DNA of 64,000 bases from Amphiscolops sp. MND2022 (GCA_964187785.1 OZ076409.1:52640001-52704000), one strand, 5' to 3'; positions 3,001 through 64,000 are shown, numbered from the stretch's first letter. The notes: generated by a model from the letters alone, not told the origin. Numbers and translations: made by a program.

Positions 3001-3480
3001 TTTCCAGGGTAAAATTGGGAATTTGTCCTAATCAGGACTCTATCATTCAGTAGTATAGCAATTTCGGTAAGTCTGAGGATTGTTTCAGGGACATTGAAAG
3101 ACCGATGATCAGCTGTTTTAAGCTGCCTCGAGAAGACCGGGAATTCAAACCCCCTTGCTTCATATCCAAAACTGTATGATTTCTCGGGAGAAACAGTTGT
3201 CTAAATTTTGGTCCTGTTAGATTATCCATCACGATGAAGATTTCATGGAACTCAATGTCACCAACCTCAAATTTCAGTTGAAAAGTTTTCTTAGGAGTTT
3301 CTAATTGTCCATTAGCGACTATTATTTGAAAGTTTGGAGGGGACTTTTCGGATAACTAATTGTGGAGAGTGTGGACGAAATTTCCGAAATTCCATTTCAA
3401 TAACTGCACTGAATAAAACACCAGTGTCCATTAGGCCGTCTATGGCTAAAACCACAAAGTCCACTAAGAAGTACAGCATG
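1..3480 (-). pseudogene. pol: pol (protease-RT-RNase H-integrase) of family A, fragmented
   Basis: DTG near 3425; ORFs 2346-2615 and 1714-2097 (YVDD); integrase H2C2 at 528-857; integrase core at about 1-400. Confidence 0.88.
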
Positions 3481-3972
3481 CGTTTCTTGCCTTTGATGTT
3501 GATATTCGTAGAGAGTTGTATGCAGTCAAGTTAACCTTCTTTGGTGACAAGAATGATTTGAAACTGTTTTTCATCTAATAGGGAATGAGGAGAAGTGTCT
3601 GTAGTAGTGCTCAGTCACCAAAGGATTCGGAAAGACGGGATAGGTTGTTCAATATTTCTTTTGCCAGTTTTCAATAAGTGCCCTAGTTTTCTTACTGTGA
3701 GTGATTGGAGGGTTTTCGCGAACTCTTCTCTGGCAGAGTTCAATATCATCAAGGACGTGCTAGAATTGCAGCAGGTCCTGGTTGTAGATTTCAGTGTCCC
3801 AATATGGATCTCCGCTGTAGCTTGGATCAATATATGTCTGATTGTAGTCGCCGATAAGTGGAATGGGCCTGAATCGGATGGTAAAGTTTGTGGTGTAATC
3901 AGGATCCCAAGAAGGAATAAGTTTTTGGTACTAGTGGGTGTTATTATACGTGTTGAGAATTGCTTTCGCCAT

Positions 3973-24600: not shown

Positions 24601-27600
24601 TATATTTTCTCCGGCAGAGACGAATTTTTTGTTAGTACCATACCCCTATGCTAGAAGCACATTTTAAAGCCCCAACAATGCTAAGTTGAGAGAGATTTGA
24701 GCCAGAGATCGCACCAATACAAGTCGAATGGTCTAACCGAATCGTGGTAGAGATCGTCTAGATCTTAGTTTACTAACAACCTGCTAAAAAGCCAAGTGAA
24801 AAGGAACTATATTAGATGCAACCATTCGCATCATTATTACTAAACAGTACAGACTGCTGAAACAAATCTTTTCACTGCCGTACCCGATTACACCACTACA
24901 TCATGCTCAAACTTACAGTTGTTCAATTACAGAGAACTCGGAACTCTCACAGTCATTCGATACCGCTGCTAGTTTTCTTAACAATTATGATAACAAAACT
25001 TGTTTTAAAGAATCAATTAGTTTTAACGTAAAATAGAACACACATAAGAGTAGTTTTGTGTGAATTTTGGTAGAATCGGAGGACCGATCGTGTTGGATAG
25101 TTTTCAGCCCGACTCAATTTAAACAACTATGATAACAAAACTTCTGTTTCAAAGAATCAATTCGTTTTAACGTAGAAATAGAACACTCATACGAGTAATT
25201 TTGTGTAAAATCATAGCACTCATCTTCTCACATTATTCTTTCGTCAAAAAACAGCCCCTTTTGTGTGGATCTAGTTACCATGAGTCCTAAATGAAGTTTT
25301 ACATTATTTCTTTTTTGAAGCTGTTGTTCAAGAACTCTAATAACTGTTACTCGGTTGAAATGTAAGCAGTGTGGTCATTAAAATGCATCTTAGAATGAAT
25401 TAAAGCCTATCTTAAAGCACGAAAATGGCGGAGCAAAGGTATTTGGTCATTTTTTGCTCCAAATTTTTTGAAAAATTTGAAATTATGAAAAATTGTGCTT
25501 TTGGAGAAAAAAGATTCAGCACAAACTTTGAAGATGCAACAAACAGGAATTAGTTTGTTTGGATACATTTTTTATGAATGTAGAGGACAGACGAACTCTT
25601 ACAAACTTTAGAAACTAATTAGTCTGCTTTCTTGTTTATTTATATACCAGTCTTGCCACTTAAGCGCAGATGAATGTCTATACTCAGTGATAGAAATGAT
25701 AACAGTGAAAACAAGTTAATTCTTAGATCTCTGACATTCTTTTAAAAGCTTGATTAGAGATACAACATGGCGCAGTCAGTTTAACCCTAAAAAGTTACTG
25801 AAAGTCAAAACAATGGACGACAGCACAAACATTTCTCCAAGGAATGGAAGCAACATCTCGACGGCGACGGGATCACGCGCAGGTGAACAACCGTTACCAA
25901 ACGAAACGATGAACAGGACCGCAGAACGGACCTGCACACAGAAATTAACCATACCAACACTGGAGAAGCAAGACTACACCAGTGCAAATCTGTGGTGGCG
26001 GAAGTTTGTACAATATATCAAAATGACGAAAGACTTAGATCTATCAACAATGACAAACAGCAAAGAAATACTGCCACAATACCGTGACCAATTAGAAGCA
26101 GAAAAAAAAGACATATTCCTGTGGGCAATTGGACAAAATGCTATCACGCAAATGACCAAAACGGTTAGAGAAAGGGAACCGAGCTCACTACCGTTACACA
26201 AACTATATTCGCTATTCAGGTTACATTTCACTCCGGAAAGAAACGTTCACCATAGCAGAGCCGATTTCTTAACAGATAAACCGACCAAATTCAAGAAAAT
26301 GGATTGCAATAAATGTGGAGCCCCAAACTGGTCGAGACAGCATGAATGTCCGGCCAGAGGAAAGAAATGTGCAAAAAGCGAAAAAATTGGCCATAATGCA
26401 AAATGTTGCAGAACAAATAAAAAACCGCATACAGGAACAAGAAACCAGTAGTGCGGAGGAAGACGAATGGTCACCGAACACAATCCATTGCATCAACCAG
26501 AAGATCCATTCAACGCGTCAAGTAAAAAAAAAGACGGTCCGGACTTCTTCACTCTCACCGCATTGGTCAACAACCGACCAATCAAGTTCATAATAGACAG
26601 CGGATCACCGGTGACACTAATACCAAAATCACTCATCAACGGAATCACACAGTTGAAACCGCTGAAAACCGAATATAGAGACGTGAATGATAACAAAATC
26701 AAATTCGAAGGAAAAACGACTGCAACAGTACAAATAAATGGACAACGAAATAATCTGGAAAACTTGATAACCACGAAGAAAACCAATCCCCTGTAAGGAT
26801 TGGATTGGATGAAAAAACTGAGAATCACACTGGACACCGGTAGAACCGGTCCCCAAATAAATCACGTCACAGAAGATCCGGATATTACTTCTTTGAAAAG
26901 AAAGTTCAAAAAACTTTTCCATGAAAATCACACCGTGGAAGGATCAGAAGTAAAAATACAGTTAAAAGAAGACGCGAGACTAATCCAACAAAAAGGAAGA
27001 CCAATACCGATTCACTTACAGCAATCGGTTGAAAAGGAAATGAACAAACTAACGAAACAGGGCCACATCGAAAAAGCAAACAACATTGACGAGAATTGTT
27101 TCGTTAACCCAGCAGTCATTACCGTAAAAAAGGACAAATAGATAAAAATCGCCCTATATTCAAGGAAATTAAAGGAGATAACCATCAAGAGAAAGGCACA
27201 AATGCCTAACATGGAAGAATTAATTTCCAGAATCTCCAGAAAAATTGCTGACGGACCGGCAGACGAAATATGGATCTCAGAACTCGATCTGGATCATGCA
27301 TACGGCCAACTACTATTATCCAGAGAAGCCCGAAACCTGTGCATATTTGCCATAACCGGTGGAAACTTTACCGGTTATTACCGTTTCCTGAAAGGATTTT
27401 ACGGATTAGCGGATATACCGACATATTTTCAAGAGAAAATTGACCAAAAATCGGAAAACAAACATCCAGCATGGTTGAATGACATAATCGTGGTAACAAA
27501 AGGCTCTAAAGAACAACACAAAAAAGAGCTGGCAGATGTCTTAACCAGGCTAGAAAACGCCGGATACAGATTGAGCGAAGGCAAATCCGAATTCTTTAAA

Positions 27601-30600
27601 ACGGAAATCGAGTGGATTGGCCATAAAATTGACCAAAATGGTATCAGACCGTTACAAGACAAATTATTGGCAATAAAAAGTCTGAAACAACCGAACAACG
27701 AGAAAGAACTCAAATCATTTTTGGGAGCTATCCAATACTTGTCAAAATACATAGACAATTTATCAGCACAGACGGATAGATTGAGACAATTGCTAAAGAA
27801 AGACACTGAATGGTTATGGACAGAAGAACACTCACGGGCCTTCGAAAATCTAAAACAAAAGATCACAGAAATACCGTTTCTGGCTCATTATAATTCAGAT
27901 TACCAAAACGTGATAATCACCGACGCCAGCACAAAAGGCCTCAGTGCGACGCTATGGCAAGAAAAACTGGACGGAAAATTAAAACCGATCGGTTTCGCAA
28001 GCCGACTTCTATCCGATACTGAAAAGAAGTATGCGACCAACGAACTCGAACTATTAGCAGTAGTTTGGGGGTTAGAACACTTCCGACTATACACTTACGG
28101 CAAACCGATGAAATTACTCACGGACCACCAAGCATTAGAACCGCTGGTAAAGCGGAACAGATTCAATAAAACGTACAGCGCACGGTTGACAAGATGGCTT
28201 GACCGATTAGCACATTTCACAATAAATGTAAACCATATTGCAGGCAAGCATATAGCACTCACGGATTACTTGAGCAGAAATCCGTCAGCGCCGCCGCAAA
28301 CAGATGACGTATACGACGAAGAATACGTAATCAACAACATCTTACAGCACTACAAATTCATTTCCAAATACGGTTGCCTGAGCAACCACGCTAACCAATC
28401 AGAAAATGGAACGACGAAAAGCGAACGCAAAACAAACAACGAACCGCGGACACGAGAAAAGCGTGAACAAACTGCCATTGATTGCCTTAACAACTTACCG
28501 TCCACACGCAAAACTCATTTACAAAATTCATTAAATCCAAAAATCACAATGGACGCCCGAACAATTGACAATCTTGAAGCAGCAGATGCATCACCCGAAA
28601 CCACTGAATTAATTCAACGGTGGAGGGACATAGTAAAGCCCGGTATCTACCGCTTAACCGGGGGGAAGTGGAAAAAATACCACGAGCCAAAATTCCTCAG
28701 AAGCGAGAGAAAAGTAGTCGAGGAGCGCTTACAACAAATTATACAAGGCCGACAACAAGGAGACCTAAGACAAAGAATTGGTCCGCAGCACAGCGGCGGT
28801 TTCCAGCCACAAACCAGACGGTCGGAACAGTGGACAGTAGATCCATTCTGGGACGTGGACCGACCAACACCGGTCCAACAACAACAACATGACCAAAGCC
28901 AACATGACAGGCCCGGACCATCGTCAACAACAACAGACACACAACACCAATTCGCCCAAATACCCATAGAAGAAAGCGAAATTGAATCAGAGACGGACCA
29001 AGACCCGTCCATCCTAGAGGTGCCAGCGTGGAATTGGGCACGATACGTAGGAGTGAAGAGCGTGCAATATGTAAAAATGGGACACGCCCCCAAAGTAGCT
29101 GCACTGGACGAAAACACTTGGGACCTTGATCAATCCGTGCGAGAGACCGGAAAGAACTTCTCAACGGATCTGCAGTTACTAATGACCGAGACTACCAACG
29201 ATCCAACACTATTGAAGACACTTGTCAGCTTGGAACGACAGCAGCATGAATTGATCCTCGAGGAGTACCAATTGCACAAAAGAAAACTATCAAGTCGGTT
29301 CGGTCTGGTTTTCATTGAAGACAAAATTATTGTCCCCAAAAACCTCAGAGCGACCATTATCAGCCTCCTGCACAAAGGCCATCCAGCCATCAATAAAATG
29401 ACCCTGGCAGCAAGACATTTCTGGTGGCCGCGGATGACTGAGGCAATTCAAAAGAAATGCGAAACGTGTCTGCCCTGCAAATTGTCCGGTAAGAACATAA
29501 AACCTAACTTCCCTAGCACGGAAACAAATAGCCTTCCGCCATTGGATAATCCAAACAAAGAAATTCAACTGGATTTTATTGGTCCAATGACGGAAAATAA
29601 TCGTCGATTTTATGTCTTATTGTCCATGTACCGGTACAGCAAATGGCCAGCGGCGAGTTTTTGCACTTCAACGGACGGCGAAACGGCAGTAAAATTTCTC
29701 GACCAATACATTCGGCTAAACGGCATACCGAAAACAATTAGAACCGATAAAGCCACTGCGTTTACGGGACAACTCTTAAAACTACATAAAACTGATATAC
29801 GGGACACCGTATATACACACACCTACCGGTCTGGTAGAGCGTGGGGTAAGAACCTTGAAAGAAAACGTACTGACGAACAAAAAAGCCGGAGAACGCTTCG
29901 GAAAAGCCTTATATATATCTTTAGATGTAACGAGAAAAACACCGCACACTCAACTAAAAAAAATCCGCTTCCGAACTACACTACTGTAGAAAACCAAACA
30001 CAGAAATAAGTAACCTACTAAATCTGGATGAAATCGAAAAGTTAACAAAACGTTCCGTTTCAGCTAAACCTGATACCTTACAGGTATACTCTTTCAGTGG
30101 AGCTGGCGGTGTGTCCAACCTGCTGCCTATGAAGTCGAAGAAAAACTCAAAAGGAGTAAGTAATTGTCCCTTCTTATTTCTAGAAAAAAACACCAACGAA
30201 ATAAATTAGAAAGTGCATATTCCGATAAACCACAATTAGCAATACCGGGCACAAATCATACGGTAACCACCCCTAACGGAAGAGTAATACATTGGAAAAT
30301 GATAAGTAAACCCATTGATTTTAACCAGGAGTACAACAACAGAGGTACTGGGCCACGCGGACCGGACGGCCGATTTGTCAAATCACCGTCCAAACAACGA
30401 CGGGCAATGATAATCGACTCGGACGCCGAATCGGAAGCACCGTCAATGGATATAGACAGCCCAAAGACGCCAGAGCTCCCTACAGACACAACCACCAAGA
30501 AGAGCACATTCGGCCGAGGACGCCCATAATTGATCCGCGATCGCGCCAGCCCAAACACAGCCAACACACCTATGCCGGGAAGCAGCACAGGCCCGCTGAC

Positions 30601-33600
30601 AATTACAACGTCAAACATGCCGGACACGGAAATAGACCGTGCCATAGAAGACGCTAATAGTGCAGAACAAGAAATTTTCATCCGAGACGAAAACGGTAAG
30701 GTACTTACTAATGATAACACAAAACTGTTAGCAGAGAATCTGGAAAACTGAACTAGAATTAGCAGGTAACCTGAGCTCAAGCACCGAAATTGAAACTGAA
30801 GAAAAAGAACCAGTACGCAGATCGAAAAGACTGACAAAAATTAATCCTAATATTAGGTATAATAACCAATTTGTCATGATTACAGGAAACTCCGCAAACA
30901 GACTGAACTCGGGAACCACACCGAGTCAACAAAAAGCCAAACCGGAGGAGGGGAACAACAACCAGTAAACCGGTCACAAAACAAAATCTTGACGTTACGG
31001 CCAAGCAACAACCGTGACAAACGAAACTGCGAGGAGCGGTCAACCGCCCAACAAACACTGGACCAGTGGAGGAACAACAACCGCCACAACAGAAAGCAGA
31101 GACCCCCATTGGCAGAGATATCAGCCAATAGCGGAGGAAGGGTGAATGTAGAGGTGAGACGAACTCTTACGAACTTTAGAAACTAATTAGTCTGCTTTCT
31201 TGTTTATTTATATTAAATACCAGTCCTGCCACTTGAGCGCAGATGAATGTCTATACTCAGTGATAGAAAAGATAACAGTGAAAACAAGTTAATTCTTAGA
31301 TCTCTTAGATTCTTTTAAATGCTTGATTAGAGATACAACAATGAATGTAAGAGATGAAAATCCGTATTTTGAATAATCCGAATCCCAACATATTTACTGC
31401 AGCAAAACAGTGTTTCAATGAGTTTGAGCTATTTTCTTCGGACGCACTGATGTTGATTAAAAGATTGACTAAGGTAAGGTATATTGAAAGAAGACGCCCG
31501 CTGACCTGCGGTATATTTTCCACCCCAAATTGTTCTAGCAGCGGTGTACTTTTGAAGCCCAAGAGTAGCCCACTATGAAAATGCATGGAAGTTTTAAAAA
31601 ATTGAAAGTTTTGACACTTTTTGATTCATTTTATCCCCTTTTGAAAGGACACACTTATTTGTTCGAAGACTCCTATTGTTTTGTCGTTGAAGTGTGTGGA
31701 AATCAGTCACCACTTTAAATTTCAAAAAAAAGGCAACCCGAATGCCAAAAACAGTCTTAATATTTTAGACATTCGAAACAGGTACATTTCTCGAAACCAT
31801 CACTCCGAAGCAAGCAATAGTACACCAGGAAAAACAGAAAACTTTAGTTCCTTCAACAATTTTTTTCGAAAAACAAGACGCCCGCTAAACACCGGGATAT
31901 TTTCCGCCTTGATGAAGATCGCGGAGAGATGATAAAAAAAGATGGAGATGAGAAGTATCTGAAATAGTCAAGTAACTAACTAAAATAGTCAAGTAATCAA
32001 AAGATGGAGATCGTGGAGACTTGGCAGAGTTTGGAAAAAAACGCAACAGAGATTATGATTTTCCTCCCCTATTATATGTGGGTGGAAAATAACAATTCTA
32101 TCTTCTTAGAAACAAAAGTACTATAAGTAGATGACATTTTTGTTTTTCAGATTTTTGGATCCTCTAATCCCAAAGTTGCATGAAAATTCAAGAAAAACGT
32201 TCAAAAAGTTTAACTTTGGATCATGCCAGCTTTTAGGAACAGAAAAACTCCCAACCAAAATGATTTTACCAGTCTGTTTTCAAGCACTGCTGAAATTCTT
32301 ATCGCCGCTAAAACATTTAAATGTCATCAAAAATCCAATGAAGGCTAGCACAAAGTACAGTTTGTCAATTTTTCACAATTTTGACCCTTTGTGGGCATTT
32401 GGTGGCATCGCGAATCCAAAACGTATTCCTTTCAAACGTATGCTGCAAAGCTAGTGTTGTTTCTTTGAACTCTGACTTTCTATATCCACCAAATCGTTCA
32501 AATGTAGAATACTGTTTGAAAAAAGTGTTCTAAAAAACCATATGCCTTTTCGAGAACATTTTTCATACAATCTCATCCGATTTTTCCAATTTCTCTTAAG
32601 AACGAGTACTAATAGCTGAATATTTCAATGCTGAGCCTATTCGGTCTTCTATTTTAGGAAAAGCTTCGAAAGTTGTTTGAAATCTATATACCTGTTGTCA
32701 AAAATTCGGGAAAAAAGTCATTTTTTGTCATTTTTGAGAAACCTCACCCCACTTTTGCACTTCCACCTAACTAGCGGACTCGTTAAGTATCAAACCGTCA
32801 AAATTTTGAACGTTCAGGTCAATGAAAGTTCTAATTAACGGAACACTTCGATAATTGAACAAATATTAGAATTAAATTTTAAAACGAAGCGTTTTTGATT
32901 TTTAGAGGTGCATTTGAAGCACTTTTCAACCAAAAACAGGAGTTTTCGTTCCAAAAAAGCTCACCGGATAACTAATTCGTTCATCATTGAGTTTCTTGAT
33001 GTTTTTACTTCAAAATCTTGAAAGTTTTCCTAAAAACGCAATGAAAAACAACAAACGGAAAATTATGCAGTTTTTGACTCTTTTTGGGTAATTTTGCGGC
33101 ACTTCTATAACACAACCGGCACATATTTTATCAAAAGAAGCATACTGGATATTTTTTCGTCGTTGGCTTTTTTAAACTGAAAATGGCAATTTTTTATCCA
33201 AAAAACAACCTGCATAGCTGATTGTTCCGTTTTTGATTTTTCTTATCAACGAATGTTTTCAAATATTTCACAAAATGTCCGGAATTCTTTTACTTTTTGA
33301 GTTTTTTTCAGGTATTTTTCTTCAAGAAGCTGCAGATATCTTTAAAAAAACCTGGATACTAATTTCATCTTGGTTGATGAGTTTTTTCCGACGCATCTGG
33401 GGCCATTCTCAAGTGTTTTTGGAGCAATTGCGTGTTGCATAGCTACGTTTTTCACCTTTGAACGTTTTGAATCTTCTAACCAATTAAATCTATCAAGCAA
33501 ATCTGCATAAAAACGCTGAAAGTTGAAAAATTCCAAATTTTGTCCATTTTGGGGTCATATTGAATCGCTCTGGGGTCGTTTTGTGATTAAACCAAAAACA

Positions 33601-45600: not shown

Positions 45601-48600
45601 TTTAAACATTAAATAGGTAACATCAGACGAGGATATTATTAAAATTCAATTTGGAACAATACAGTTTTCGACACTCGATAAGTTCTCGGCAAGACATAAT
45701 GCAATTTGGACATAACGTCACAAATCGGATATTGTGCTCTATTGTCGGTACAAAGGAGTTTTGTAAGGTAACGTTATCAGGATAGTTCAATGCGGAGTCA
45801 TGAAAATTATTGGCTCGCGCGGAATTCAACTCCTGTTTTTCTGAACACTTTTCAGAAAAACAGAAGTTGAATTCCGCGCGAGAAAATAATTTTGGCAATA
45901 ATTTAGCAAATCATGTTTTGAAATTCTTGACAAGAATCTTGCCAAGATTCTTGTCAAGAAATCCGGTAGGTAAAAACTGCATGCAGAAAATCTGTGATAA
46001 ATTATGAAAAAGGTAACCGATGATTTTTGTGGGCAACGGTTTTTTTACGTAGAAGTTGCTCGATAACCTTCCGAGGTTTTTACTTGATTGATTTGAACGT
46101 TAATTTATTTATAAATAAATTAACGTTCAAATCAATCAAGTAAACCTTGGAAAGTTATCGAGCAACTTCTACGTAAAAAAACCGTTGCCCACAAAAATCA
46201 TCGGTTACCTTTTTCTCTGAAGTTTGGAAGGACTCGCTATACAACTTTTGTTCATTTTAATCGTGGTTGAGTAGCTTGATTCACATTGGAGCTAGAAGCA
46301 TTTTTTCTGAGGCTCTTTAGAGCATCGGACTTCGTGCAAAGATACGTCATTCGTTAATCAGTGTGTCATTTGCAGCACTCACAGTTAGATTTTCGAGATT
46401 ATCCTATCGTTAATTGCACTAGTAATAGCTTTTTGAATCTGCCTATTTAGATTCTGCATCAATCTATCAATTTCCCTTGTCATTATATGATTAATTTCCC
46501 CAGTTAGGCTTTCCATGTTTTGTTATTTGTCTCTTGAAAACTCCTGTCATTTCTAAAGTCGTCATCAGCCTCTCTAAATCCATTCTCCTGTGAAGAACTA
46601 TCTATTTTTCCTGTTAAAACAGTTTTGATGATTATTCAGGTCCCGTCAAGTTGTCTAACTTTTGTTCTCTTCGCTCTCCGTGCATTAACCAATCGTGATA
46701 TTTGAACTTTCGATGCCAGACATGTTCGACCTCCTTGATCTTTCCTGCAGAAAACATCTCGTTGAAACTTCTATTAGGTTTTTTTCAGGAAATCTAATTG
46801 CAAATGGTCTTTTTGACCTCAACTCTTACCTCATGTCAAAAAATTTTCCCCGAGATGGTCATTTTTATCAAAGGACTTCTTTTCCAATAGTTTCTGTCAC
46901 TAACTGTACTAGATTACATGAGTGAAACGGTTACCCTGAGTGTCTGGTTCGGATGAGTTTTGGAATCAAGTGTGTTTCAATGCAACGCTGGTCAAAATTT
47001 ATTTCGTTTCCAAAAGTAGATAAAGTCAAAGATTCAACCTTTGTTTTTTTTTCATTATTCACTTTTTTGCAAATATTTTACACCAATTTTTAGTCGGCGC
47101 TTTTCGAAGAAAAGAACCGACCATAGAAGTGGCTTTTTGTGAAGACCAGCGAACTGACAGTTTTTTTATAAGATAGGCAATTCTATAATTAAAAGCAACT
47201 ACTAATCTGTGACTTAGTGACATTAAACATCTTAGTTTAGAGGTTAACGCGGATTCCTTGAGCTCTAAAAAGCAGGAATGCGTGGGTTCGAGTCTCGCAC
47301 TGAACCAAAGATTGTTTAGGCTTGCAAAAGTAGAGAGGAGACCAAAGATCGTTTTTAGTTAGCGCTTTTCTAGTGAAAAGTGTCCGACTTTTACAATGAC
47401 TAGTTTTTTTTCGTCAGACTACAGACCTCACCCTGTATGTACCACTTTCTGTGCATTATACAGTTTTACCATAAGTACTTAGTGCTTCATTTTGAAAGCA
47501 TCCAAAGCCTCTGAAAAACCATTTAAAAGCAGAAGCGTTCCCCCTTTCCAAACTTTTTGGCGCTATGAGACTTTTCCCGCACCCGTTTTGAGAGACGTTT
47601 TTGAAAACTTTTAATGTCTCGAAAGAGTCCACGTTCAATTTTTTTTTTGAAATTTGCAATAGAATGGATGTAGAAAAATCCAAGATGGTCCTCCCTTTTA
47701 GCGCGCCAAAACTTGACACTTTGGAAGCGGAAGAATACACGGTGAAAATAGTCAACTTTACATTATCTTTTGGAACCTCATATGCACACATGCATGAACT
47801 ATTATTAGTCTGCCTTTTCGAAGAAAAAGCACGACCCTTACAATGGCTCGTTTTTGTTGTCAGTTCAACGCGATCGGTCCACTTTTTTGTTGTTTCATTT
47901 GTCCAACTTCTTGGCCGAGAGTTTAACACGGATTTAAGTTCAGATATAGCCTTTCAAAGTTCAGATGTAACGTTTTCAAGTTCGAATGTAGCGTATTCAA
48001 AGTTCGAATATAACGTTTTCAAAGTTCGTCACCGACCCGAAAGTTTGACTGATTGACCAAACGGTGTGTAACTAAAGATAGCAAGTCTTCTATGGTCGCG
48101 TAAAGTTCGTCTGGAGGCACTGTTCTGTTTAAAATATGGTTTTGACGTTGCCTTCGCGCGAAAAGTTGTTGTCCTCTGTAGCTGTTTCCATGTGCGCTCT
48201 AGGCGTTTTTCCTTCCGACGACTTGTTTCCATTTCTGAGGCTCGACGACAAAGTTGCAGTCCAAAAAGATTCGATTTCAACTGATGCAGACTTACAAAGA
48301 ACTAATTTTCGACTTCCTTTTAAATTAAAACAGTACAACCTATTTATACCTTCCTAGCATATTTTATCCTTTCCTAAAAATTCTTACGAATTTTGAAAAC
48401 GTGAAATGTTTTTGACTAAATTGAGCACACCTGCAACTTTGAAAAGATTTCAGTCAATCGTCATATTGTCGACGCAATATACTAGACTGTTTCATTCTTA
48501 CTTTGAATACTCGACTAGACAAGGTTGACATTAATCTAAATCCGCCATTAGTTGTTCGTGACTTATCGTCAGTGTGGCGGCAAAATCTGCGTTAGTCAAC

Positions 48601-50185: not shown

Positions 50186-51022
50186 TTTTTTAGTCGGCGC
50201 TTCATGAAGTGAAACGCGACTATTATAGTGACTCTTTTTTTTCAATCCACACGGACTGATCAAAGTAGTTCTTGAATGTTCTACAAAATATTATTGCACC
50301 AAATTGCACCATTTTGCCTTGCGAACTGAACCAAAAAAGTTTTTCCTGTTTTCCCGCGTAACATACCATACCGGGCGAGACCAAAGGGTCCCCCTTTCAA
50401 TTTTTTTCGGCACTGCAAGATTTTTTTCGGAAAAACTTTTTCCCCAAAGGGTCCCCCTTCATTTTTTTTGCTGTTTTGCGACAGAATGGATGTTGAAAAA
50501 TCCCAAAGGGTCCCTCCTTTCTGTTTTTTTTCGGCCTTGTGAGATTTTTTTCCGAAAATTAAAAAAAAAATTTCCCCTTCACTTTTTTGATGTTTTGCGA
50601 CAGAATGGAGGTTGAAAACCCCCAAAGGGTCCCCTTTCAGTTTTTCGGTATTGTGAGACTTTTTTTCTATAATTTTTTTCTCTCCAAAGGGTCCCTTTAA
50701 ATTTCTTTGATATTTTACAACAGATTGGGTCTTTAAAAATCCCAAAGGGTCCCCCCTTTCAGTTTGTCGGCATTGTGACTTTTTTCCGAAAATTTGTTTT
50801 TTCTCCAAAGGGTCCCCCCTTCAACTGCGACAAAACTGTTGACAATTTCGGAAGTGTCTCCCTATTAGCGCGCCAGGGGCTCGCGATAGCAGGCCCCGGC
50901 GCGCCACTTGGTCCATTTTTTTGGTTTTTTGATTTTCGAGTACTGTAAATTGACACTTGGGAGTCCTTTTGCTATTTTTGAGCCTTGGATATGGCGCCGA
51001 CTTGGGCCGGTCCCGGCTTGTT
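50186..51022 (+). mobile_element. Helentron/DINE-1-like element (family H1) with expanded internal tandem array
   Basis: Same termini as 18152-18598; about 7 CCAAAGGGTCCC units at 50381-50820. Confidence 0.8.
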
Positions 51023-54061: not shown

Positions 54062-54245
54062 TTGCAGTTTTTCAGGGATAATGTAATTTCTATAGGGAAA
54101 AAGTAACAGTTTCAGGAAATTTTGAAAATGAAAAGTTGCCGTAATAATCCCCAACGGGATTATTACGGTAACTTTTCATTTTCAAAAGTTCCTGAAACTG
54201 TTACTTTTTCCCTATAGGAATAATATTATCCACGAAAAATAGCAA
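54062..54245. repeat. Long palindrome (core stem about 62 bp, 4-nt loop)
   Basis: CTATAGGGAAAAAGTAACAGTTTCAGGAA..TAATAATCCC-CAAC-GGGATTATTA..TTCCTGAAACTGTTACTTTTTCCCTATAG (core 54090-54217). Confidence 0.92.
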
Positions 54246-55907: not shown

Positions 55908-56375
55908 CAGTGATACTAAAAATATGAGGATCGAAAATCACCCGGGTTGACCCTCTTACTAGCATCTTGGCTGTCTTGGCAAGATCTTGCCAAATTCTTA
56001 CTACATCTTGGCAACCATGGATCCCATGGCAAGATTCTTATTAAGATCTTACTAAGACAATACTTATTCCAAGATCGTATCTTATCACGATGGACAAAAT
56101 TTTACGATTAAAAAAAAACACTCTATCTTCGGTACAAGCAGCGGAGACTCAATCTAAAGGCTCATTTCACCTTTTTCTACTCGTTTTCATAATCAAATTG
56201 CTTAAACCTGCTGAAAAAATTTTGCATGCAAAAATGCGTGAAAAATTATGATAACGTAGTCTGGCTTCCAAAATTTTGACGAGAATCCTTATAACTGCTC
56301 ACCTGTTTAAGACTGAGAAATGCGAATGTACCAAAGGAAAGGTCATTTCAAGGGCTTTCCAAAACTGGTAATTAA

Positions 56376-56999
56376 TCACTCCTGTCGATTCCAGAGACGG
56401 AGAAATATGCTCTTGTCATGACCAATCAGGTCAGGGTATTCATCATTTGGTAGGTTTTCATCCTGTCCTTCTCTCAAGCCGTTCTTTGCGTTTAGGTTTC
56501 GCTGAACTTCGGAATTTAGTTCAGGTCTCTCGGACGGAACGTCCCATCCTTTTCTGGTCCCGTGTCCTGATCCGGCCATAATAACATTTTGAATTTGAGG
56601 AAGTACTTGGGCACTTATTGCATCACTTATGGCCCTCTGTATTTGGACATTCACAGAATTCATCATCTCATCCATTTCTCGTGAGATACGAGAGTTTAAC
56701 TTGCTGGACAACCTATTTATTTCAGCGCTAGAATTACCTGTGACTGAATTTCGGTCACATTTGGTGTTCATCCCTGGGTCAATATTTCTCTGAGATCTGT
56801 TCATGTTCTCATTTCCATTTTCAGATTCATTGCTTAGAGAACTCCTATACCTTCCAGGTAAGTTGCTATTCAAGCTGCCTTCCCTTTCCCTCGTACTGAA
56901 ATGACTCTCACCTAACATTATATCTAAGTTCTCGATATCAGATAACATTTCGTGTCCTCTTGACTTTCTTGCTTTCTTCTGTTTTCTAGTTGTAGGCAT
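56376..56999 (-). CDS. Open 207-aa gag N-terminal ORF inside the 3' LTR, running into flanking DNA
   Basis: MPTTRKQKKARKSR..MLSDIENLDIMLG..QIQRAISDAI; homologous to the gag start at 5639; last 12 aa come from the flank. Confidence 0.7.
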   Translation of the reverse strand: MPTTRKQKKARKSRGHEMLSDIENLDIMLGESHFSTREREGSLNSNLPGRYRSSLSNESENGNENMNRSQRNIDPGMNTKCDRNSVTGNSSAEINRLSSKLNSRISREMDEMMNSVNVQIQRAISDAISAQVLPQIQNVIMAGSGHGTRKGWDVPSERPELNSEVQRNLNAKNGLREGQDENLPNDEYPDLIGHDKSIFLRLWNRQE

Positions 57000-58364
57000 A
57001 GAGACAGATCCGGGTCGAATATTTCAATTATCAGAACCGGAAAACGGTATTTCGTTATAGGTTTGCAACAAAGATTATTTTCAACTGATTGTAAAGAGCA
57101 GAACATAAGATTGTGTCTGACCAAGGAAGTAGCACCTACATATACTGCCTCGGGCATGACATACATAGTTCGAATACTAAAAATGTGATGACCACATTCC
57201 GAGAGCACCTGATTTTCATAAGTTTACAAACATCAAAGTACCGCTAAAATGTGATCGGAACAGTCACACGACCATTCAAATTCTTACTTTGACCACACTA
57301 ATAAACATTTGAAAGGCACGCAGAGCATCAAAGAACATCATATGAAATGCACAAGCCGCTCATATTCAAGGAATGCCAACAATCTCGTGCCGGCACGTGC
57401 CCCGTTATCAGACAGGACTGACTATAAATCAACATTTTTACATGCTATTGTACATGCTAATTTCTATGAAATATTGCCACAGATTGCACAGGTTAGTTGG
57501 TGAAAGTGGCCAGAAAGGTCTTTCAGACCGGCGCATGCAGTAACATCATAGATTAGCATCGATCACACTAATTAGTTTAGAGAACTACATGAATGTTTAT
57601 AACACGATTACAAACATACATTACATTTAAAGTACATGAACTCATCAAACAAAACATCCGGTTATTAATTTGAATAGGAGCCTTAACCGGCTACTACCCG
57701 GTTGGTTCTGGCAATGCGAAACAATAATCATGCAATTGGCCTTATTCGGCCAAGTATCAAGACAAAGCACTAATTACTAAATTGAACATTTAACCAGTGT
57801 TAAAGCACAACTATTGTATTAGTAATCAACACTCAAAGGTATTACAATGTGTTTCTTTCATTACTGCTTCGTGGCCGGAATCGGCCGTTTGACTAAAGCA
57901 CCGATAGATAAAAACAGAGTTCTGTCGAGTGGCCTTAACCGGCCATTTGTCGAATACAGCAATAATAGCACAAGCATGGATAAGTATGATTGGCTAACGA
58001 GGTGAGCTCAAGTGACGTCTCCGGAATCAGAGTTGCGTTCACTTGAACTCGTTTCCTATACGCTATTTAGCCGTGTTTGCTTCAATTATATTATTGTACT
58101 GCACTTCAAGCTTCGCAAATATCAGCTCATTATTTGAATCTTTCAGTTGTTGGCATTAACGGACTAATACTGGCAAAAGGTGTACAGTAATTAAAAAATT
58201 GGCAACAGTAACAAATCTAACTTACAAAACTAGCAAAATAACATAAGAGTTTGAGTTTTAAACGTTTTTACTTCTCTAATAGAATGGTAGGGTGCCGGTC
58301 GCTATCTCTTGCCCTTCTGCTGAAGTCGTGATTCTAGTGCCATCACAGGCGGCAGCCTGCGACA
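56414..58364 (-). repeat. 3' LTR of family A (1951 bp)
   Basis: Minus strand TGTCGCAGGC...CATGACA; shares GGCATGACAT, GATTGG.TAA and AACTCGTTTCC blocks with the 5221-7276 LTR. Confidence 0.82.
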
Positions 58365-59063
58365 CTGCGGGTGTTAGGAAAAGTAAGCTCCCTGCATTTA
58401 ATCCATTGGAGTATGCTTCTCGTAGTAGCGCGGTAATGTAGGCGGGTTCACTTTCGGGCGTCGATCTCTCCATATACCAGTTAATTTTCTCTTCTTTTAT
58501 CTGGTCCCTTGACTTGCCACACACCATACAGCCTGTATGGAGGCTCTCACTGACATTCTCGTATGGCTTAATATTCTGCACATGGTAAGAAGCATAGAAG
58601 TTCCCTGGGGTCATCTGCACCAGAGGGGTGTCAATAGGTCCTCTCTCGTGATCAGGAGGGGACAGAGGAGACTCCAAGACAGGCAGTACCGTAGTGCAAA
58701 GTTCGACTCTCGATTTCTTCTGCCTTTTGGACGGCGCGAGGCACATTTCCTTGTTGAAGTACTCAAATCCCAGTTTGGGGGAGAGGGCAGAATGGGCTGA
58801 GTATTGCTAGTCCCTGCTACCATTTCGTCGCTTGAGTCTTCTGCCGTCATCACTCGTCCAGCAATCGGGATTGGAGCTGCCTTGACCTCTCGCTCAATTC
58901 TGTCTATTATTGCCTCTGTATCCGTGGACCAGTCCGAATCCCAGGAACTTGAAACTTCATCTTCGCTATCACTAGATATGTAGATCACTGAGTTGGCTGA
59001 GCTTTCTGAGTCTTCTTCAAAGTCGAAGAGTTTATTAGTCAAGTTGTATCTTTGCATTATCAA
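58276..59063 (-). pseudogene. Accessory ORF (about 260 aa, one frameshift near 58770): acidic N-terminus, CxxC, C-terminus inside the LTR
   Basis: ORFs 58611-59063 and 58276-58746 join by one frameshift, supported by the continuous homolog at 6670-6988; tail SQAAACD..G[TV]LP present in all three LTRs. Confidence 0.72.
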
Positions 59064-59409
59064 TTTCTTAGCAATTTTGTTAGGTGGGAAGGTCGACTGA
59101 CTTGATCAAGATTTCAAAGTGGAATGAAGTTACCAATTCAAGAATTTGGTCGAGTCAGGGTTTTTCTCGGTAGTCCGTTTTGGCGGTTGAATCTTCGGTA
59201 AATCGTCGTAATCCGACATAAACATTCCTGAATGGAATTTCACAATTAGTCGGCATCCTTTGATAATTCAGTATTTACCCTTCATTAATATCATCACTAT
59301 GAGAGGTGTGGATGACGCTCGAGTTGTAAATATTAACTTCGCCTGTTTCAAGTGGGTAATTAACAGGTCGCTTGAAAACAATTAACAGCATGCGTCGCAA
59401 AGTTTTCTC

Positions 59410-59510
59410 AAAATGGCTTCAGCCAATTAGAATCGAGCTTCGATAAATTGAAAAATGAATAATAAAATGGCGGAAATAATAAAGCTAAATAATTCCAAAA
59501 TGGCGGAAAT
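59410..59510. promoter_or_regulatory. Candidate bidirectional promoter with two YY1-type AAAATGGCGG motifs and a CCAAT box
   Basis: AAAATGGCGGAAAT at 59464 and 59497; AGCCAAT near 59422; lies between divergent ORFs. Confidence 0.4.
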
Positions 59511-60110
59511 TCTAACTAGAGGTAACTAAGGCAACTGAACAAAACGGTAAAACGGAATAGGGCAAACGGCCATAATCGGCCACTAACTAACTAAGCTGTA
59601 AATAGTGTATGCTTCCTGTACATTTCGCTGGCAGACTCCATGTACATTTTAAATATGTAGATAATCGTATAATATTAGTCTGGTAATCCTCTTCAGCCAC
59701 GAACTCCAATCCTCCAATTTATCCACGTTAAAATTCCAGTTCAATTCCGTTTATTATTTATTTGTTCCACTTCCTTTACTTGGGCCCACTCAGCTGGTAC
59801 TCGTCTCTCTTTTGCCCTCAGTCAGCTGTTGACTCTCCTCTCTACAGTATCCCGGGACACCCTTCTTGCCAAGGCCGGCTAAATCCTGCAATCTCTAGCT
59901 ATTTGCCTAGGATTACATCCCACGAGTCAACAGTCCAGAAAGAACATGTCTTCAAATCCAGGTTGGTTTCATTTTCAATTAGTGAACTAGTCTAGCTTGA
60001 TCAAGGCTACACTTTGCTCAAATACTGCTTCCTGTTTCCACAAGTAAACATGTGATAACACGTTTCATTCAAGTTTTCGAACACTTCCCGAAGATTTCTG
60101 ACGCGGTAAA

Positions 60111-63100
60111 ATGGATTCTTTTCAAGGAAGCATACCGCCGACTTTCATTTCTTTCTATTTGGATAATCAAACCCCTGAGATCGGAATTTCTCCAAATCCT
60201 TCTGAACTGCCTCTGCCAGCTTCCACTGAAGACGCTACAAATGCTTCCGGGAATGTCGCCAATCCTCAGATTTCTTCTCAGAATACGGATAGCGACGAGG
60301 ATGTGAATGCATATGCGGAAGCCAAAGCCTCAAGCATGGAGACTGGGATACTCCAAGTACAGGAACAGTCAGGTGTGAATGCCAAGGATACTGAGTTATC
60401 TCATGCGGAGATTCGTTCCAGCCAACTGGAGACGCAGACTATGTTCCCTATCCGTGCAAGCACTCCAATTCCCTTTGAGACAGCTGGGACATCTCAAGCT
60501 AGTCTGACTGCCTTAGAATCGGGACTGAGAGTTGCTGATCCTATAGGATCCCAATTGCCCGAACTCCTCACCACGACGCCGACTAAGGCTATTGTCCGAA
60601 TTTCAACAACCGATGATGATTGTGAATCTTCCGTGTATGAAGTCCCTGCTCTCCCAACACAGGAACATAAGGTCCGATTCTTGACAGACCTCAGTGAGCC
60701 TGAGAAAACTGCGGAAGAGTCAAGTAATGCAATCTGCCCTTCGTTATATGGGGGAATTCCGAATATGTCCGAATCTGGAGCAGAGACAATTGATCCGCCC
60801 GACCTGACAATTTCGGCTCAAGAACAACTAGAGCCTGAACCTTCAACTTCCAGGGGGACCGGAGACCAGCTTCCAGAACTCTCCGGGAGAGCAGGAGCCA
60901 TTCTGAAGACATATTTTGACGAGACTAATGCCTTCAGGCTACCACCCGGGCAGACGACCGTGACTTTCTCCGAGCCACAGGTGTACCATTTGCTGCGTGT
61001 TTTAAGCGATGAGACTCTTCGCATGTCCTACACAACCATTGAACGCATGATCCTAGACGCTGTTCGCGGTAGTCCAACGATCGCACCATCAAGGACCGGG
61101 CATTTCCAACTGGGGACGCGCCCACAAACTCCTTACCGATACGCTAGTAGTGATTCCAGTGATGCCGAATCCGGCCAACTGCCCATCGTTGATTCAGAGG
61201 ATCAGAGTGCCACCGATTTTGGTGGTTTAGGCGACTCCTCCACATTCGGGGAAAGTGATAGTGCCGGGGAAATGGCTTTGATCTCTGCCACATTCGAGGC
61301 TTCCAACAACCGGTCAGCCGTCAAGACTACATCTTTGCCAGCACCAAGTGGACTAATCCAAGTGGACAGCCAGGAAACGGACTTCAGCAGTCAAGACGCG
61401 ACGTTGTCTGAAGTGAGAGATCAGACCCTGGGGACCAAAGGCAAGCAGCGAAATAAGAAGGCTAGTAAGCCTAAGAGGGTGTCACAACGCGGAGTCCCAA
61501 TGAGGGGAGAATTCTTCGCCAAGATCGGGTGGACACGCTCATTCATTTCCGGACCCGCAGACCCGCTACACAACCCCTATATGGTTTGGTGCCATATCTG
61601 CAAAAAGAATTTTTCCATACGCACCAAATTCTCAGACACCATCGTACCGAGAGGCACCTTAGACGTGATCAGCGGTGGCGGTACGAGCACTTGAAGAGCA
61701 CCGATCCCGTCACTCTGAAGACTCAACATCGCGTGCGGGGCAAAAACGGGAAAATCTTGACCAGATTGGAATTGGCCAAGGAGCTTCCCAAGTTCATACA
61801 CGCTGAATTGGTGGATATCGGGGAGCGCTTCCTCTTCTATGAGGATTTCATTCGAGGCCGGACGACTCCTCTGGTCACTCCGGAGTCTCGCGCACGAACT
61901 CAGCTGTGCATGGTTGCCGATTTTATCCAGCATCATGGCGACATTGCAACCCTCCGCAACATGTGGGCGAAGATCAGCTCGTTCACCGATCACCAGGCAG
62001 CCCTTTGTGACTTTGATTGGGGGGAAGAGAGAATGACTGTAAGTACTACCTTTTCGCTTTACTTACAAACTCCCCCTTTCGAATTTAGTTAGGTTCTCAA
62101 CTCATTCCCCTTTCCAGGCCATATTCCAGCATCTCTTCAATTGCAGCATGCATGACATTGCAGACCACATCTCTTCCTCGCAGTTCTTCGCTCTGGAATT
62201 TGAGGATGAAGGAGCTAGCCGCTTCATGTCACTCAGGTACTGGAAGGGTCAACACTTGTGCAGGGTCGTCATCTGCCGCAGCGGGTTGCCCAGTACAGAT
62301 CTCACTGGCGAGTTAGGTTCTTTGGCCCGCCTGCTCTCGGTGGTCTCAACGAAGGCAGATATTGTGGCCTGTTCCGGATGCCCTTCTGAATTGATCCGAC
62401 ACTAGATGAACTCCCGACCTCTTCCCGAGCTGTCCAAAGTTGCTTCCGATTCAGCCAACTGAGTTTACCCAAATTGATGCACAAAAGCAGTTACAGTGTT
62501 TTCGGGCATCTGGACTTCTTCTCAGTGTTACGAGGTCTGGTTATCTCTTTGGGTGGATCTTCTCAAGAAGATTGGGTGCAACGCAGTCCTGAATTAGCCA
62601 AGGTTAGCAAAAATTGGGGTTTCAATGTTAGGCGCACTTCTGACTAGTTTGGGACGTTAGCCTAGGTCTTACAATGATTCTGAATTTTCTCCTTAGGCTA
62701 TCTCTAAAAGTGACTTGGAGCTCTCCACCTTGCCAATTCTGTGTCAGGAGCTCATGGAAGAGTGGAAATTCGTAGGTATGAAATTCTTTAGGTAGGAATG
62801 ACACAGGCTTACTATTGTTTCCTGTTATGTTCTAGGTCCAGAGTTTTGAGTGGTCGCTCATCTGTGATGAGTTTTTCCTTGTCAAGCTGGAACTCTTCTA
62901 CCACCTCGTCAGCGATTGTTAGTATCACAAGGTGGACTAATTTGTCTTGTTGAGACTAGTGGGGATTGTTCCTTTGTTTTTAGACAACTCCAGTTTTGTA
63001 AACAATCTGCAATGTAGACGAGACTCGTCCTTCTACCTTTTTGGAGAAATAGCCCGGTACATTTATCGGCTCTGCTTCCGCTGTTATTCTCCCGACACTA

Positions 63101-64000
63101 TCCCGCTAGAAAATTCATGGGTCCTTCTCTTGAATTTCCAGACCAGCGAGGGGACCTTCATGCCAGCGGACGAGTTCCTGACCCGGCTGAAGATGACCAA
63201 TAAAGTTGCCAAATCTTGCAAGCAGAAAGCGGAAGATGTGCATTCTGGCAAGAAGATTGACAGGGCTGCTGTTCAGAAGACCGCCACTACCATTAAGAAT
63301 GATTTCGTCCGGGACACTCAATCCTACTTGCAGTATCTGATTGGAACAGTCCTTCGACAAGCCGGCCTTTGCTCTAACCTCGTCAGGGGGCTTGCTGCCT
63401 TTGACCCTCACATTATGGTGCACAGGCCTACCGAAGTAGCTCTCCGTCATTTTGACCTCTTGTACCGTACCTTCCAGCTTCGATCTTGGGTTAGCTCTGC
63501 AAACGAGTCTGCCTGTCGAGACGAGTACGTGGAGTTGCTAGATCAACTTCGTGCCGCCTCTCTACCTTCCTTTGATGTCACCCAGGGTTCTCCGGATCTG
63601 ATTGACTTCCTCATCAACCTTGCTTTTATGCAGGAGCACAGTCACTTGCTGTACCTATTCAAATTGAGCTGTTTGTGTGTTACCTCTAACAGTCCTCGTT
63701 ATCCGGTAGTAACTGTGGGGTCCCTCAGCACTTCAAACTATCAAAGCAGGCTCACTGACGTAGTTTTACCCGTGCAGAGTTACCTGTCTGGAGTTCCTGA
63801 CTCTGTTGTTTTCTGTAGCAATGAGTCCAATCTGAGTAAATTCTCTCTTCTTTCCGCCTCATTCGGTCGATCGGCCTTATCCTCCTCCTATGACCCCTGG
63901 ACATTCGTTGATGAGTTTGGCAGGGGGAAGATCTACAAGACCTTATTGACGACGTATCGTTCTGCACTTTCCGGACTGGGGGAAGAAGTTGGAGACCCTC
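60111..64000 (+). pseudogene. Spliced hAT-transposase-like zinc-finger gene (>1190 aa, two frameshifts): exons 60111-62038, 62118-62602, 62697-62771, 62836-62917, 62984->64000
   Basis: Four GT-AG introns of 79, 94, 64 and 66 bp with compatible phases; BED-like WCHICKKNFSIRTK..ILRHHRTERH; FFALEFED, MSLRYW and LAAFDP in hAT-like order; last exon open for about 339 codons to the window end. Confidence 0.7.

What the first reader, a model, noticed from the sequence alone, without database searches (positions are those of the whole stretch)
58276..64000. LTR retrotransposon apparently carrying an antisense, intron-containing, dead-transposase-like cargo gene
Seen: inside the 3' LTR (56414-58364, minus) lies a sense accessory ORF, then about 1 kb of spacer, then a plus-strand gene with four short GT-AG introns (62039-62117, 62603-62696, 62772-62835, 62918-62983) that splice into one frame apart from two small frameshifts. 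Known: introns on the strand opposite a retroelement's genomic RNA are not spliced from it and so survive reverse transcription. Inference: a Gypsy family may stably carry a spliced antisense gene derived from a DNA transposon, which I do not recognise as a described architecture. The far end is outside the window, so membership in the element is not proven.
Basis: partly seen in the sequence, partly recalled or inferred. Interest (0 to 1): 0.9.

Follow-up and report, generated by a model that had tools for sequence, protein, structure and literature searches.

The report
Retrotransposon carrying spliced, dead transposase gene
A large, recently active family of copy-and-paste jumping genes carries, on its opposite strand, a four-intron gene built from a disabled cut-and-paste transposase that natural selection has kept intact, suggesting one class of mobile element has tamed a protein of the other class for its own use.

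Summary
Confirmed, with one correction. Extending the contig gives a 16.2-kb Ty3/Gypsy element: two 1,951-bp LTRs (98.5% identical), TSD GCTCT, PBS, gag-pol. The plus-strand gene lies inside it, tail-to-tail with pol. Of 36 copies fetched by this gene, 34 have an LTR pair, 28 a 5-bp TSD and 33 all parts, across three clades whose cargo proteins are only ~30-37% identical. The four GT-AG introns, their phases (0,0,0,1) and exon lengths (486/135/82) are conserved; dN/dS in the spliced frame is 0.04-0.11 in most measurable pairs; database relatives cross junctions 1, 3 and 4 without a gap. Two halves folded separately both match Hermes (hAT) in order, and the language-model search agrees; sequence profiles do not detect the link. 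The DDE positions look replaced and no shared TIRs exist. The gene has promoter-like motifs and is swapped as a module between gag-pol backbones. Best guess: a DNA-binding regulator of its own element (0.45). No RNA evidence could be obtained. Antisense accessory genes are known; a spliced hAT-derived one was not found in ten literature searches.

The parts
56409..56413 (.). 5-bp target-site duplication GCTCT (second copy right after the far LTR, extended 72649-72653)
56414..58364 (-). 3' LTR, 1,951 bp, TG...CA, 98.5% identical to the 5' LTR at extended coordinates 70698-72648
56414..56999 (-). copy of the gag N-terminus: gag starts inside the LTR, so the 3' LTR repeats its first ~195 codons
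58279..59057 (-). sense accessory ORF (~235-270 aa in other copies; acidic N-terminus, CxxC motif), runs across the PPT position into U3; frameshifted in this copy by an insertion near 58758
59058..60110 (+). head-to-head spacer with promoter-like motifs: CCAAT 59421, YY1-like AAAATGGCGG 59464 and 59497, TTGATCA 59997, ETS-like CTTCC motifs 60028 and 60084 (motif names recalled)
60111..62038 (+). cargo exon 1: ~455-aa acidic low-complexity region, basic cluster, BED-like zinc finger (about 61485-61770), helical linker; frameshift near 61627 in this copy
62039..62117 (+). intron 1 (phase 0, GT-AG)
62118..62602 (+). cargo exon 2 (486 nt in the family): RNase H-like core; frameshift near 62398 in this copy
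62603..62696 (+). intron 2 (phase 0, GT-AG)
62697..62777 (+). cargo exon 3, truncated in this copy (135 nt in the family); deletion near 62777 removed the family donor
62778..62835 (+). remnant of intron 3 with its conserved acceptor (phase 0)
62836..62917 (+). cargo exon 4 (82 nt)
62918..62983 (+). intron 4 (phase 1, GT-AG)
62984..64000 (+). cargo exon 5 (continues to a stop at extended 64146): helical insertion and C-terminal hAT-like region, basic NLS-like tail; followed by the end of pol on the minus strand

Best explanation
[quoted passage not shown] Because the introns are on the strand opposite the packaged genomic RNA they are not spliced out of it and pass through reverse transcription (established logic; inferred here). 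The integrated copy transcribes the gene from an internal promoter in the spacer, splices it, and makes a ~1,270-aa nuclear protein that has lost cutting activity but keeps the BED finger and transposase scaffold, plus a long acidic disordered N-terminus. Most likely job: it binds a motif shared by the family's DNA and promotes or protects the element's transcription (transactivator or anti-silencing factor). Shown: architecture, intron conservation, purifying selection, module swapping. Supported by prediction only: hAT fold, loss of DDE. Inferred: transcription, splicing in RNA, DNA binding, direction of the effect.
For: Architecture in 33 of 36 copies, LTR pair in 34, TSD in 28, 22 of 34 LTR pairs at least 99% identical. 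Exact-length open exons bounded by AG and GT: exon 2 in 23, exon 3 in 29, exon 4 in 34 of 36 copies over three clades (also 64). dN/dS 0.04-0.11 in five of the six pairs with measurable dS (0.24 in the closest pair), third positions vary 42-56% against 4-13% at second positions in every exon. Relatives cross junction 1 (P0114), 3 (P0194 and 5 of its 10 cluster members, P0286) and 4 (P0246, P0321, P0391/P0395) without a gap. N-half model: Hermes 8EDG is the top Foldseek hit (E 3.3e-3; five of the top six are Hermes), VIA Z 6.3, model 6-337 on Hermes 4-382; exon-5 model: Hermes is the top VIA hit, Z 6.0, model 11-315 on Hermes 377-609, i.e. the two halves tile Hermes in order. Atlas: exon 5 scores 0.93, 25 of 30 hits are PF05699 hAT clusters; N-half hits are BED/hAT families at 0.78-0.83. 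End of core strand 4 is S/T-G in 11 of 11 rows where own-genome hATs have D; the strand-1 position is E in 7 and A in 4 of 11; no conserved acid follows the C-L-C motif in 31 rows. Zinc-finger region is the most conserved part of the gene (89-97% aa within a clade against 75-98% for exon 5; 49-50% against 32-37% between clades). CTTCCSGAAG upstream of the ATG in 28 of 36 copies against 0 in 234 kb of gag-pol; YY1-like motif on the cargo strand in 28 of 30 spacers, 0 on the other. N-terminal 455 aa: 45% S/T/P/E/D, net charge -35.
Against: No sequence-level link to hAT: no Pfam hit, no PDB sequence hit, nothing against 25 own-genome ORFs from hAT loci by hmmsearch or hhalign; Foldseek missed Hermes for the exon-5 model; Z about 6 is in the range of common folds and the N-half model is weak (pLDDT 56, pTM 0.32); placing D, D and E rests on secondary structure and recalled motifs, not on a residue-level alignment. 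The gene does not travel with one U3 type (Spearman of pairwise distances 0.11-0.19 in clade A-D, -0.07 to 0.50 in clade X), which argues against a VANC-style allele-specific lock on U3. No functional data at all; only 6 of 32 close copies are fully in phase over the tested part.
Confidence: 0.45

Rival explanations
1. Same origin and expression, but the protein (or the antisense RNA) is a self-limiting repressor, like HTLV-1 HBZ: it damps the LTR promoter and keeps copy number tolerable.
For: HBZ precedent: spliced antisense product that lowers 5' LTR expression (PMC10186651, passages); dead transposases often act as repressors (recalled); indifference to U3 type fits a family-wide target.
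Against: A repressor acting in trans is easy to cheat on, yet 33 of 36 fetched copies keep it and it is under strong purifying selection; long acidic N-terminus looks more like an activation region (inference). Copies were chosen by the gene, so cheaters would have been missed.
Confidence: 0.2
2. The protein works in the replication cycle: it binds cDNA ends or chromatin and helps nuclear import or tethers the integration complex to targets, a job that favours the copy that encodes it.
For: Transposase scaffolds bind DNA ends and oligomerise (established for Hermes); basic NLS-like clusters at both ends; LTR ends TGTCGC/…GCGACA are shared across clades; clade A-D lacks a purine-rich PPT yet is recently active, so extra help at this step is conceivable.
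Against: Made from a separate antisense mRNA, so it is not part of the Gag-Pol polyprotein and has no evident route into particles; swapped freely among gag-pol backbones; TSDs show no obvious consensus.
Confidence: 0.15
3. The protein is a decoy or antagonist of a host defence factor (for example a domesticated hAT/BED-type repressor or a SUMO-dependent silencing complex) rather than a binder of its own DNA; many old alleles are kept by frequency-dependent selection.
For: Cargo synonymous sites are saturated (pS 0.74-0.84) in pairs whose integrase pS is only 0.15-0.33; identity jumps from 55-75% to 90-98% at the cargo/pol border; 657 clusters at 50% identity match exon 5.
Against: Diversification is under purifying, not positive, selection in these pairwise counts; old alleles on a recombining backbone can also arise without balancing selection; no host partner identified.
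Confidence: 0.12
4. The gene came not from a mobile hAT element but from a host gene already domesticated from one (ZBED/FAM200/GTF2IRD2-like), captured with its introns.
For: Atlas neighbours include FAM200/GTF2IRD2-like and ZBED-like clusters; loss of DDE and gain of introns are typical of domesticated genes (recalled). This concerns origin and is compatible with any function above.
Against: No named or longer relative found; all 36 genomic contexts read were retroelement-like. A single-copy host donor could be hidden below the best-scoring copies.
Confidence: 0.3
5. It is a passenger: a nested DNA transposon, still active or decaying, copied along with the retroelement.
For: hAT fold; nested insertions are common (PMC7264820).
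Against: No shared inverted repeat of 11 bp or more around the gene in 14 of 16 copies, the two others having unrelated chance matches; catalytic acids not conserved; same position in three deep clades; dN/dS far below 1.
Confidence: 0.02

Closest known systems
Plant Ty3/Gypsy elements with antisense ORFs between pol and the 3' LTR (maize Grande gene23, rice RIRE2, Retand with the TRP28/PF04195 domain)
   Same: Position, orientation, presence in most copies, internal promoter and nuclear product for gene23, unknown function (PMC7264820 main text; PMC11963269 passages).
   Different: Those ORFs are described without introns ('intron' occurs 0 times in PMC11963269; PMC7264820 calls for a search for spliced antisense transcripts) and as lacking similarity to other TEs; no PF04195 hit here. 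Here the product has a whole hAT transposase layout and four conserved introns.
Botrytis Boty-like elements with the antisense gene brtn (Zhao et al. 2011, PMID 21802103)
   Same: Ty3/Gypsy with an extra antisense gene (title and citing passages only).
   Different: Paper not held. I recall, unverified, that brtn has several exons; if so, an intron-bearing antisense gene in an LTR element has a precedent. Nothing seen links BRTN to hAT transposases; homology not tested.
HTLV-1 hbz and HTLV-2/3/4 aph
   Same: Spliced antisense transcript encoding a nuclear regulator of the element's own LTR (PMC10186651 passages).
   Different: Exogenous retroviruses; promoter in the 3' LTR rather than internal; small bZIP-type protein rather than a transposase derivative.
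Drosophila TART and Arabidopsis Ty1/Copia spliced antisense transcripts
   Same: Multiple introns on the antisense strand of a retrotransposon (PMC1636488; bioRxiv 2024.04.02.587720; passages).
   Different: Both are reported as non-coding; here the spliced frame is a conserved ~1,270-aa protein.
hAT transposases (Hermes) and their domesticated derivatives (ZBED, FAM200, GTF2IRD2-like)
   Same: BED-like finger, RNase H-like core, helical insertion, C-terminal region in the same order.
   Different: Catalytic acids, CxxH and TIRs not found; extra ~455-aa acidic N-terminus; domesticated by another mobile element rather than by the host.
VANC anti-silencing proteins of VANDAL elements; ASY2-like accessory protein of ATLANTYS
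   Same: TE-encoded accessory chromatin proteins; VANC is the model for the proposed function (PMC6719617, PMC13547354 passages).
   Different: VANC is in DNA transposons, derives from MAIN-like proteins and is family-specific; here no tight pairing with U3 type was seen.

Membership tests
Ty3/Gypsy LTR retrotransposon | Two LTRs with TG...CA ends and a 4-6 bp TSD | tested here: met
Ty3/Gypsy LTR retrotransposon | gag then PR-RT-RH-IN order | tested here: met
   Pfam on a sister copy, order in 35 of 36 copies, best PDB sequence hit Ty3 Gag-Pol E 3e-39
Ty3/Gypsy LTR retrotransposon | PBS next to the 5' LTR | tested here: met
   TGGTGACA(G/A)GAG in 13 of 13; matching tRNA not identified
Ty3/Gypsy LTR retrotransposon | Polypurine tract before the 3' LTR | tested here: inconclusive
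   short AGGGGAG-type tract in 7 of 7 copies of clades X and Y; not purine-rich in 6 of 6 copies of clade A-D including the window
Named Ty3/Gypsy clade | RT phylogeny with reference elements | not testable with these tools
   no reference library of clades on hand
hAT transposase fold | BED finger, RNase H-like core with helical insertion, C-terminal dimerisation-type region in order | tested here: met
   collinear Hermes matches of two separately folded halves at modest scores plus Atlas (36, 74); not detected by sequence profiles (9, 20, 34, 35, 56, 78)
Active hAT transposase | Invariant D-D-E triad and CxxH | tested here: not met
   strand-4 end S/T-G in 11 of 11, strand-1 position E/A, no conserved acid after C-L-C in 31 rows; positions assigned from secondary structure and recalled motifs
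hAT DNA transposon | Terminal inverted repeats and 8-bp TSD around the gene | tested here: not met
   no shared inverted repeat in 16 copies
Retand/Tat antisense ORF (TRP28) | PF04195 domain | tested here: not met
   no Pfam match
Spliced protein-coding gene | Conserved splice sites, phases and purifying selection in the spliced frame | tested here: met
Spliced protein-coding gene | Spliced RNA reads | not testable with these tools
   no run could be laid on the stretch
VANC-type anti-silencing system | Protein and target motif co-vary family by family and reduce silencing | tested here: inconclusive
   no tight co-segregation with U3; target and activity unknown
env-bearing (errantivirus-like) element | Sense ORF3 encoding a membrane glycoprotein | not tested
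   the sense ORF is short, acidic, with a CxxC motif and no evident hydrophobic segment by eye; no formal prediction run

The most novel reading that the evidence does not exclude
A Class I retrotransposon has domesticated a whole Class II (hAT) transposase, introns included, as an exchangeable antisense cassette whose product is a DNA-binding counter-silencing or transactivating factor; the cassette exists as many ancient alleles shuffled over a recombining gag-pol backbone, and its spliced mRNA is sometimes reverse-transcribed back into the element (precise loss of intron 3 in one subfamily). This would be an animal-type or other non-plant counterpart of VANC, built from a transposase and carried by a retroelement.
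Probability: 0.35. Interest if true: 0.92.

Novelty: new variant of a known kind. Interest (0 to 1): 0.8.

Why it matters
Antisense accessory genes of LTR retrotransposons are an open problem: their origin and function are described as unknown (PMC7264820). This family gives one a traceable origin (hAT transposase), shows that a retroelement can keep a multi-intron gene for a long time, and supplies hundreds of natural alleles and recombinants (at least 337 scored exon-5 matches over). It makes testable how a high-copy retrotransposon stays active in a repeat-rich genome, adds TE-by-TE domestication to the known host domestication of transposases, and warns annotators that such loci will be miscalled as host genes or DNA transposons.

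Tried and rejected
Pfam scans of the cargo pieces: no match over the cut-off. PDB sequence search with both profiles: nothing. Foldseek with the exon-5 model: no significant match, Hermes not listed. hmmsearch and hhalign against ORFs from own-genome hAT loci: best E 0.04, at the zinc finger only. Search for longer (spliced, annotated) relatives: none among 8,000 scored candidates, weak evidence. RNA runs: none was listed. Rfam on 56000-64000: no match. First dN/dS pass used a wrong phase for exons 1-4 and was replaced. Four distant relatives (P0321, P0264, P0257, P0259) gave no match in the own genome at strict E-values; they may come from other species, not shown. Junction 2 was crossed by no protein among 395 examined; many junction-1 and -4 rows in that output are only read-through into introns and were not counted. 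Idea that the cargo is locked to a cognate U3: not supported (83; U3 stretches were cut approximately and are near saturation, so the test is blunt). Host group not determined. Earlier findings of the scan: three look-ups returned nothing. Literature: ten searches showed no spliced, hAT-derived antisense gene in an LTR element; subscription papers and Repbase are outside the library, and no supplements were read.


Full report
1. The element. The window lies in a 1.07-Gb eukaryotic assembly. Adding 20 kb to the right shows a 16,235-bp element on the minus strand: LTRs at 56414-58364 and (extended coordinates) 70698-72648, 1,951 bp and 98.5% identical, flanked by GCTCT on both sides. Between them, from the 5' LTR: PBS, gag (starting inside the LTR), PR-RT-RH-IN (Pfam on a sister copy; best solved relative Ty3 Gag-Pol), then the plus-strand gene tail-to-tail with pol, a ~1-kb spacer, and a short sense ORF that runs into the 3' LTR. 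No env-like gene was recognised.

2. The gene is a fixed part of a large family. Exon 5 gave 119 scored matches at 68-100% identity; two distant relatives gave 109 each; these are lower bounds. I fetched 35 further copies, picked by hand from the plus-strand rows of those lists to span identity bands (not random, and all chosen by the gene). Of 36 including the window, 34 have an LTR pair, 28 a 5-bp TSD, 33 all parts in the same order, and 34 have exon 5 abutting integrase on the other strand; of the two misses one has a duplicated integrase segment and one has no pol in the fetched stretch, which holds 200 N. 22 of 34 LTR pairs are at least 99% identical, so the family is recently active. Three clades (A-D, X, Y) have RT 87-90% identical but exon 5 only 32-37%. 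A profile of exon 5 matches 657 clusters at 50% identity, all shown rows unnamed.

3. The introns are real by every comparative test. In 32 aligned close copies GT/AG are kept in 30-32 at each intron while interiors diverge and gain indels. Phases are 0,0,0,1 and exons 2-4 are 486, 135 and 82 nt; exact-length open exons bounded by AG and GT occur in 23, 29 and 34 of 36 copies, all three in 20. In the spliced frame dN/dS is 0.04-0.11 for five pairs and 0.24 for the closest pair, dS is saturated for five far pairs, and every exon shows third-position bias. Collection proteins cross junction 1 (P0114), 3 (P0194, P0286) and 4 (P0246, P0321, P0391/P0395) with no gap. Six of 11 members of the P0194 cluster, most from long contigs, lack intron 3 exactly yet read through intron 4; as P0194 nests beside clade A-D and clades A-D, X and Y all have intron 3, precise loss is the simpler reading, which would imply a spliced cDNA (inference). 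No RNA data could be examined.

4. What the protein is. Predicted length about 1,270 aa: a 455-aa acidic low-complexity region, a W-C-x2-C...H-x4-H finger, an RNase H-like core in exon 2, helical exons 3-5 and a basic tail. The halves were folded separately (pLDDT 56 and 65). The N-half's top Foldseek hit is Hermes (8EDG, E 3.3e-3) and VIA aligns residues 6-337 to Hermes 4-382 (Z 6.3, rank 5, rmsd 17.8, 173 aligned); exon 5's top VIA hit among 48,161 chains is Hermes 377-609 (Z 6.0, rmsd 5.7, 166 aligned). Each score alone is middling; the end-to-end tiling is the evidence. The Atlas agrees (exon 5: 0.93, 25 of 30 hits PF05699; N-half: BED/hAT families below 0.9). Against: no profile or Pfam method sees the link. 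At the inferred catalytic positions strand 4 ends in S/T-G in 11 of 11 rows (D in six own-genome hATs), the strand-1 position is E or A, and no conserved acid follows the C-L-C motif that stands where hATs have the E-R-x-F-S segment (motif equivalence partly recalled). An invariant E two residues earlier in strand 1 remains. No shared TIRs flank the gene.

5. Expression signals and modularity. Upstream of the ATG, CTTCCSGAAG is present in 28 and TTGATCAR in 31 of 36 copies (0 of the former in 234 kb of gag-pol); a YY1-like motif lies on the cargo strand in 28 of 30 spacers. ETS and YY1 labels are recalled. Identity between subfamilies jumps from 55-75% over the gene to 90-98% at the pol border; integrase pS is 0.15-0.33 where cargo pS is 0.74-0.84. 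Distances within the gene correlate at 0.87-0.92 in clade A-D but only 0.04-0.31 with pol and gag, 0.06-0.14 with the sense ORF and 0.11-0.19 with U3 (16 elements); clade X is noisier. The gene is therefore an old cassette exchanged as a unit by recombination.

6. Mechanism. Shown: a selected, intron-bearing antisense gene inside a replicating LTR family. Inferred: introns survive because the genomic RNA is the other strand; an internal promoter makes a spliced mRNA; the product is nuclear and binds DNA through its best-conserved part, the finger. I put 0.45 on a positive regulator or anti-silencing factor acting on a family-wide motif, 0.2 on a self-repressor, 0.15 on a role in import or integration, 0.12 on a decoy against host defence, 0.02 on a mere passenger. 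Origin directly from a mobile hAT (about 0.7) or through a domesticated host gene (about 0.3) is open.

7. Comparison and novelty. Antisense ORFs at this position are known in plants and Botrytis, with origin and function called unknown (PMC7264820, main text read in parts 1-2 of 3; PMC11963269, passages). Spliced antisense RNAs are known in TART and Arabidopsis Copia but as non-coding (PMC1636488; bioRxiv 2024.04.02.587720; passages), and as coding in HTLV (PMC10186651, passages). VANC and the ATLANTYS accessory protein are the functional analogues (PMC6719617, PMC13547354, passages). Zhao et al. 2011 on brtn was not held; citing passages (PMC8365987, PMC5987419, PMC4227169) do not say whether it has introns, and I recall, unverified, that it does. 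PMC9911081 (passages) did not describe element structure. Ten searches found no hAT-derived spliced antisense gene in an LTR element. Verdict: real, a new variant of a known kind, interest 0.8.

Noticed in passing
window 58279-59057 (-): The sense accessory ORF is itself conserved in all three clades (31-41% identity between clades, pN well below pS), with an acidic N-terminus holding a SUMO-interacting-like VIYISS motif (label recalled), a CxxC motif and weak Spin-doc zinc-finger hits (E 0.05-0.1); it overlaps the PPT position and the start of U3.
   Followed up: partly
window 58365-58394: Clade A-D has no purine-rich PPT before the 3' LTR (6 of 6), although its LTR pairs reach 99.8% identity; clades X and Y have a short G-rich tract.
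   Followed up: partly
window 56414-56999 (-): gag begins about 600 bp inside the LTR and reads through the LTR end and PBS in all clades examined.
   Followed up: partly
P0194 cluster, P0286: Precise absence of intron 3 with intron 4 retained in a genomic subfamily; suggests cDNA-mediated intron loss inside a retroelement.
   Followed up: partly
G000:C5:3368637, 3382739, 3396841: Three identical-scoring copies spaced 14,102 bp apart, probably a tandem array sharing LTRs.
   Followed up: no
window 25575-31340 (+): A separate 5.8-kb Gypsy-type element with ~195-bp direct repeats and a 955-aa RT-RH-integrase-zinc ORF.
   Followed up: no
window about 12000-17000 (-): Broken Bel/Pao-type element (Peptidase_A17 at 13610-14338); similar strand skew at 1-5000.
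   Followed up: no
window 54062-54245, 46006-46215, 45803-45893, 50381-50824: Hairpin-like inverted repeats and a ~120-bp tandem repeat that also occurs beside other loci; probably MITE-like dispersed repeats.
   Followed up: no
L032 (extended 74772-79637): A 1,561-bp direct duplication, 99.6% identical, right of the element.
   Followed up: no
L093-L094: One clade-Y copy has a 3,375-bp tandem duplication covering the end of the cargo gene and integrase.
   Followed up: no
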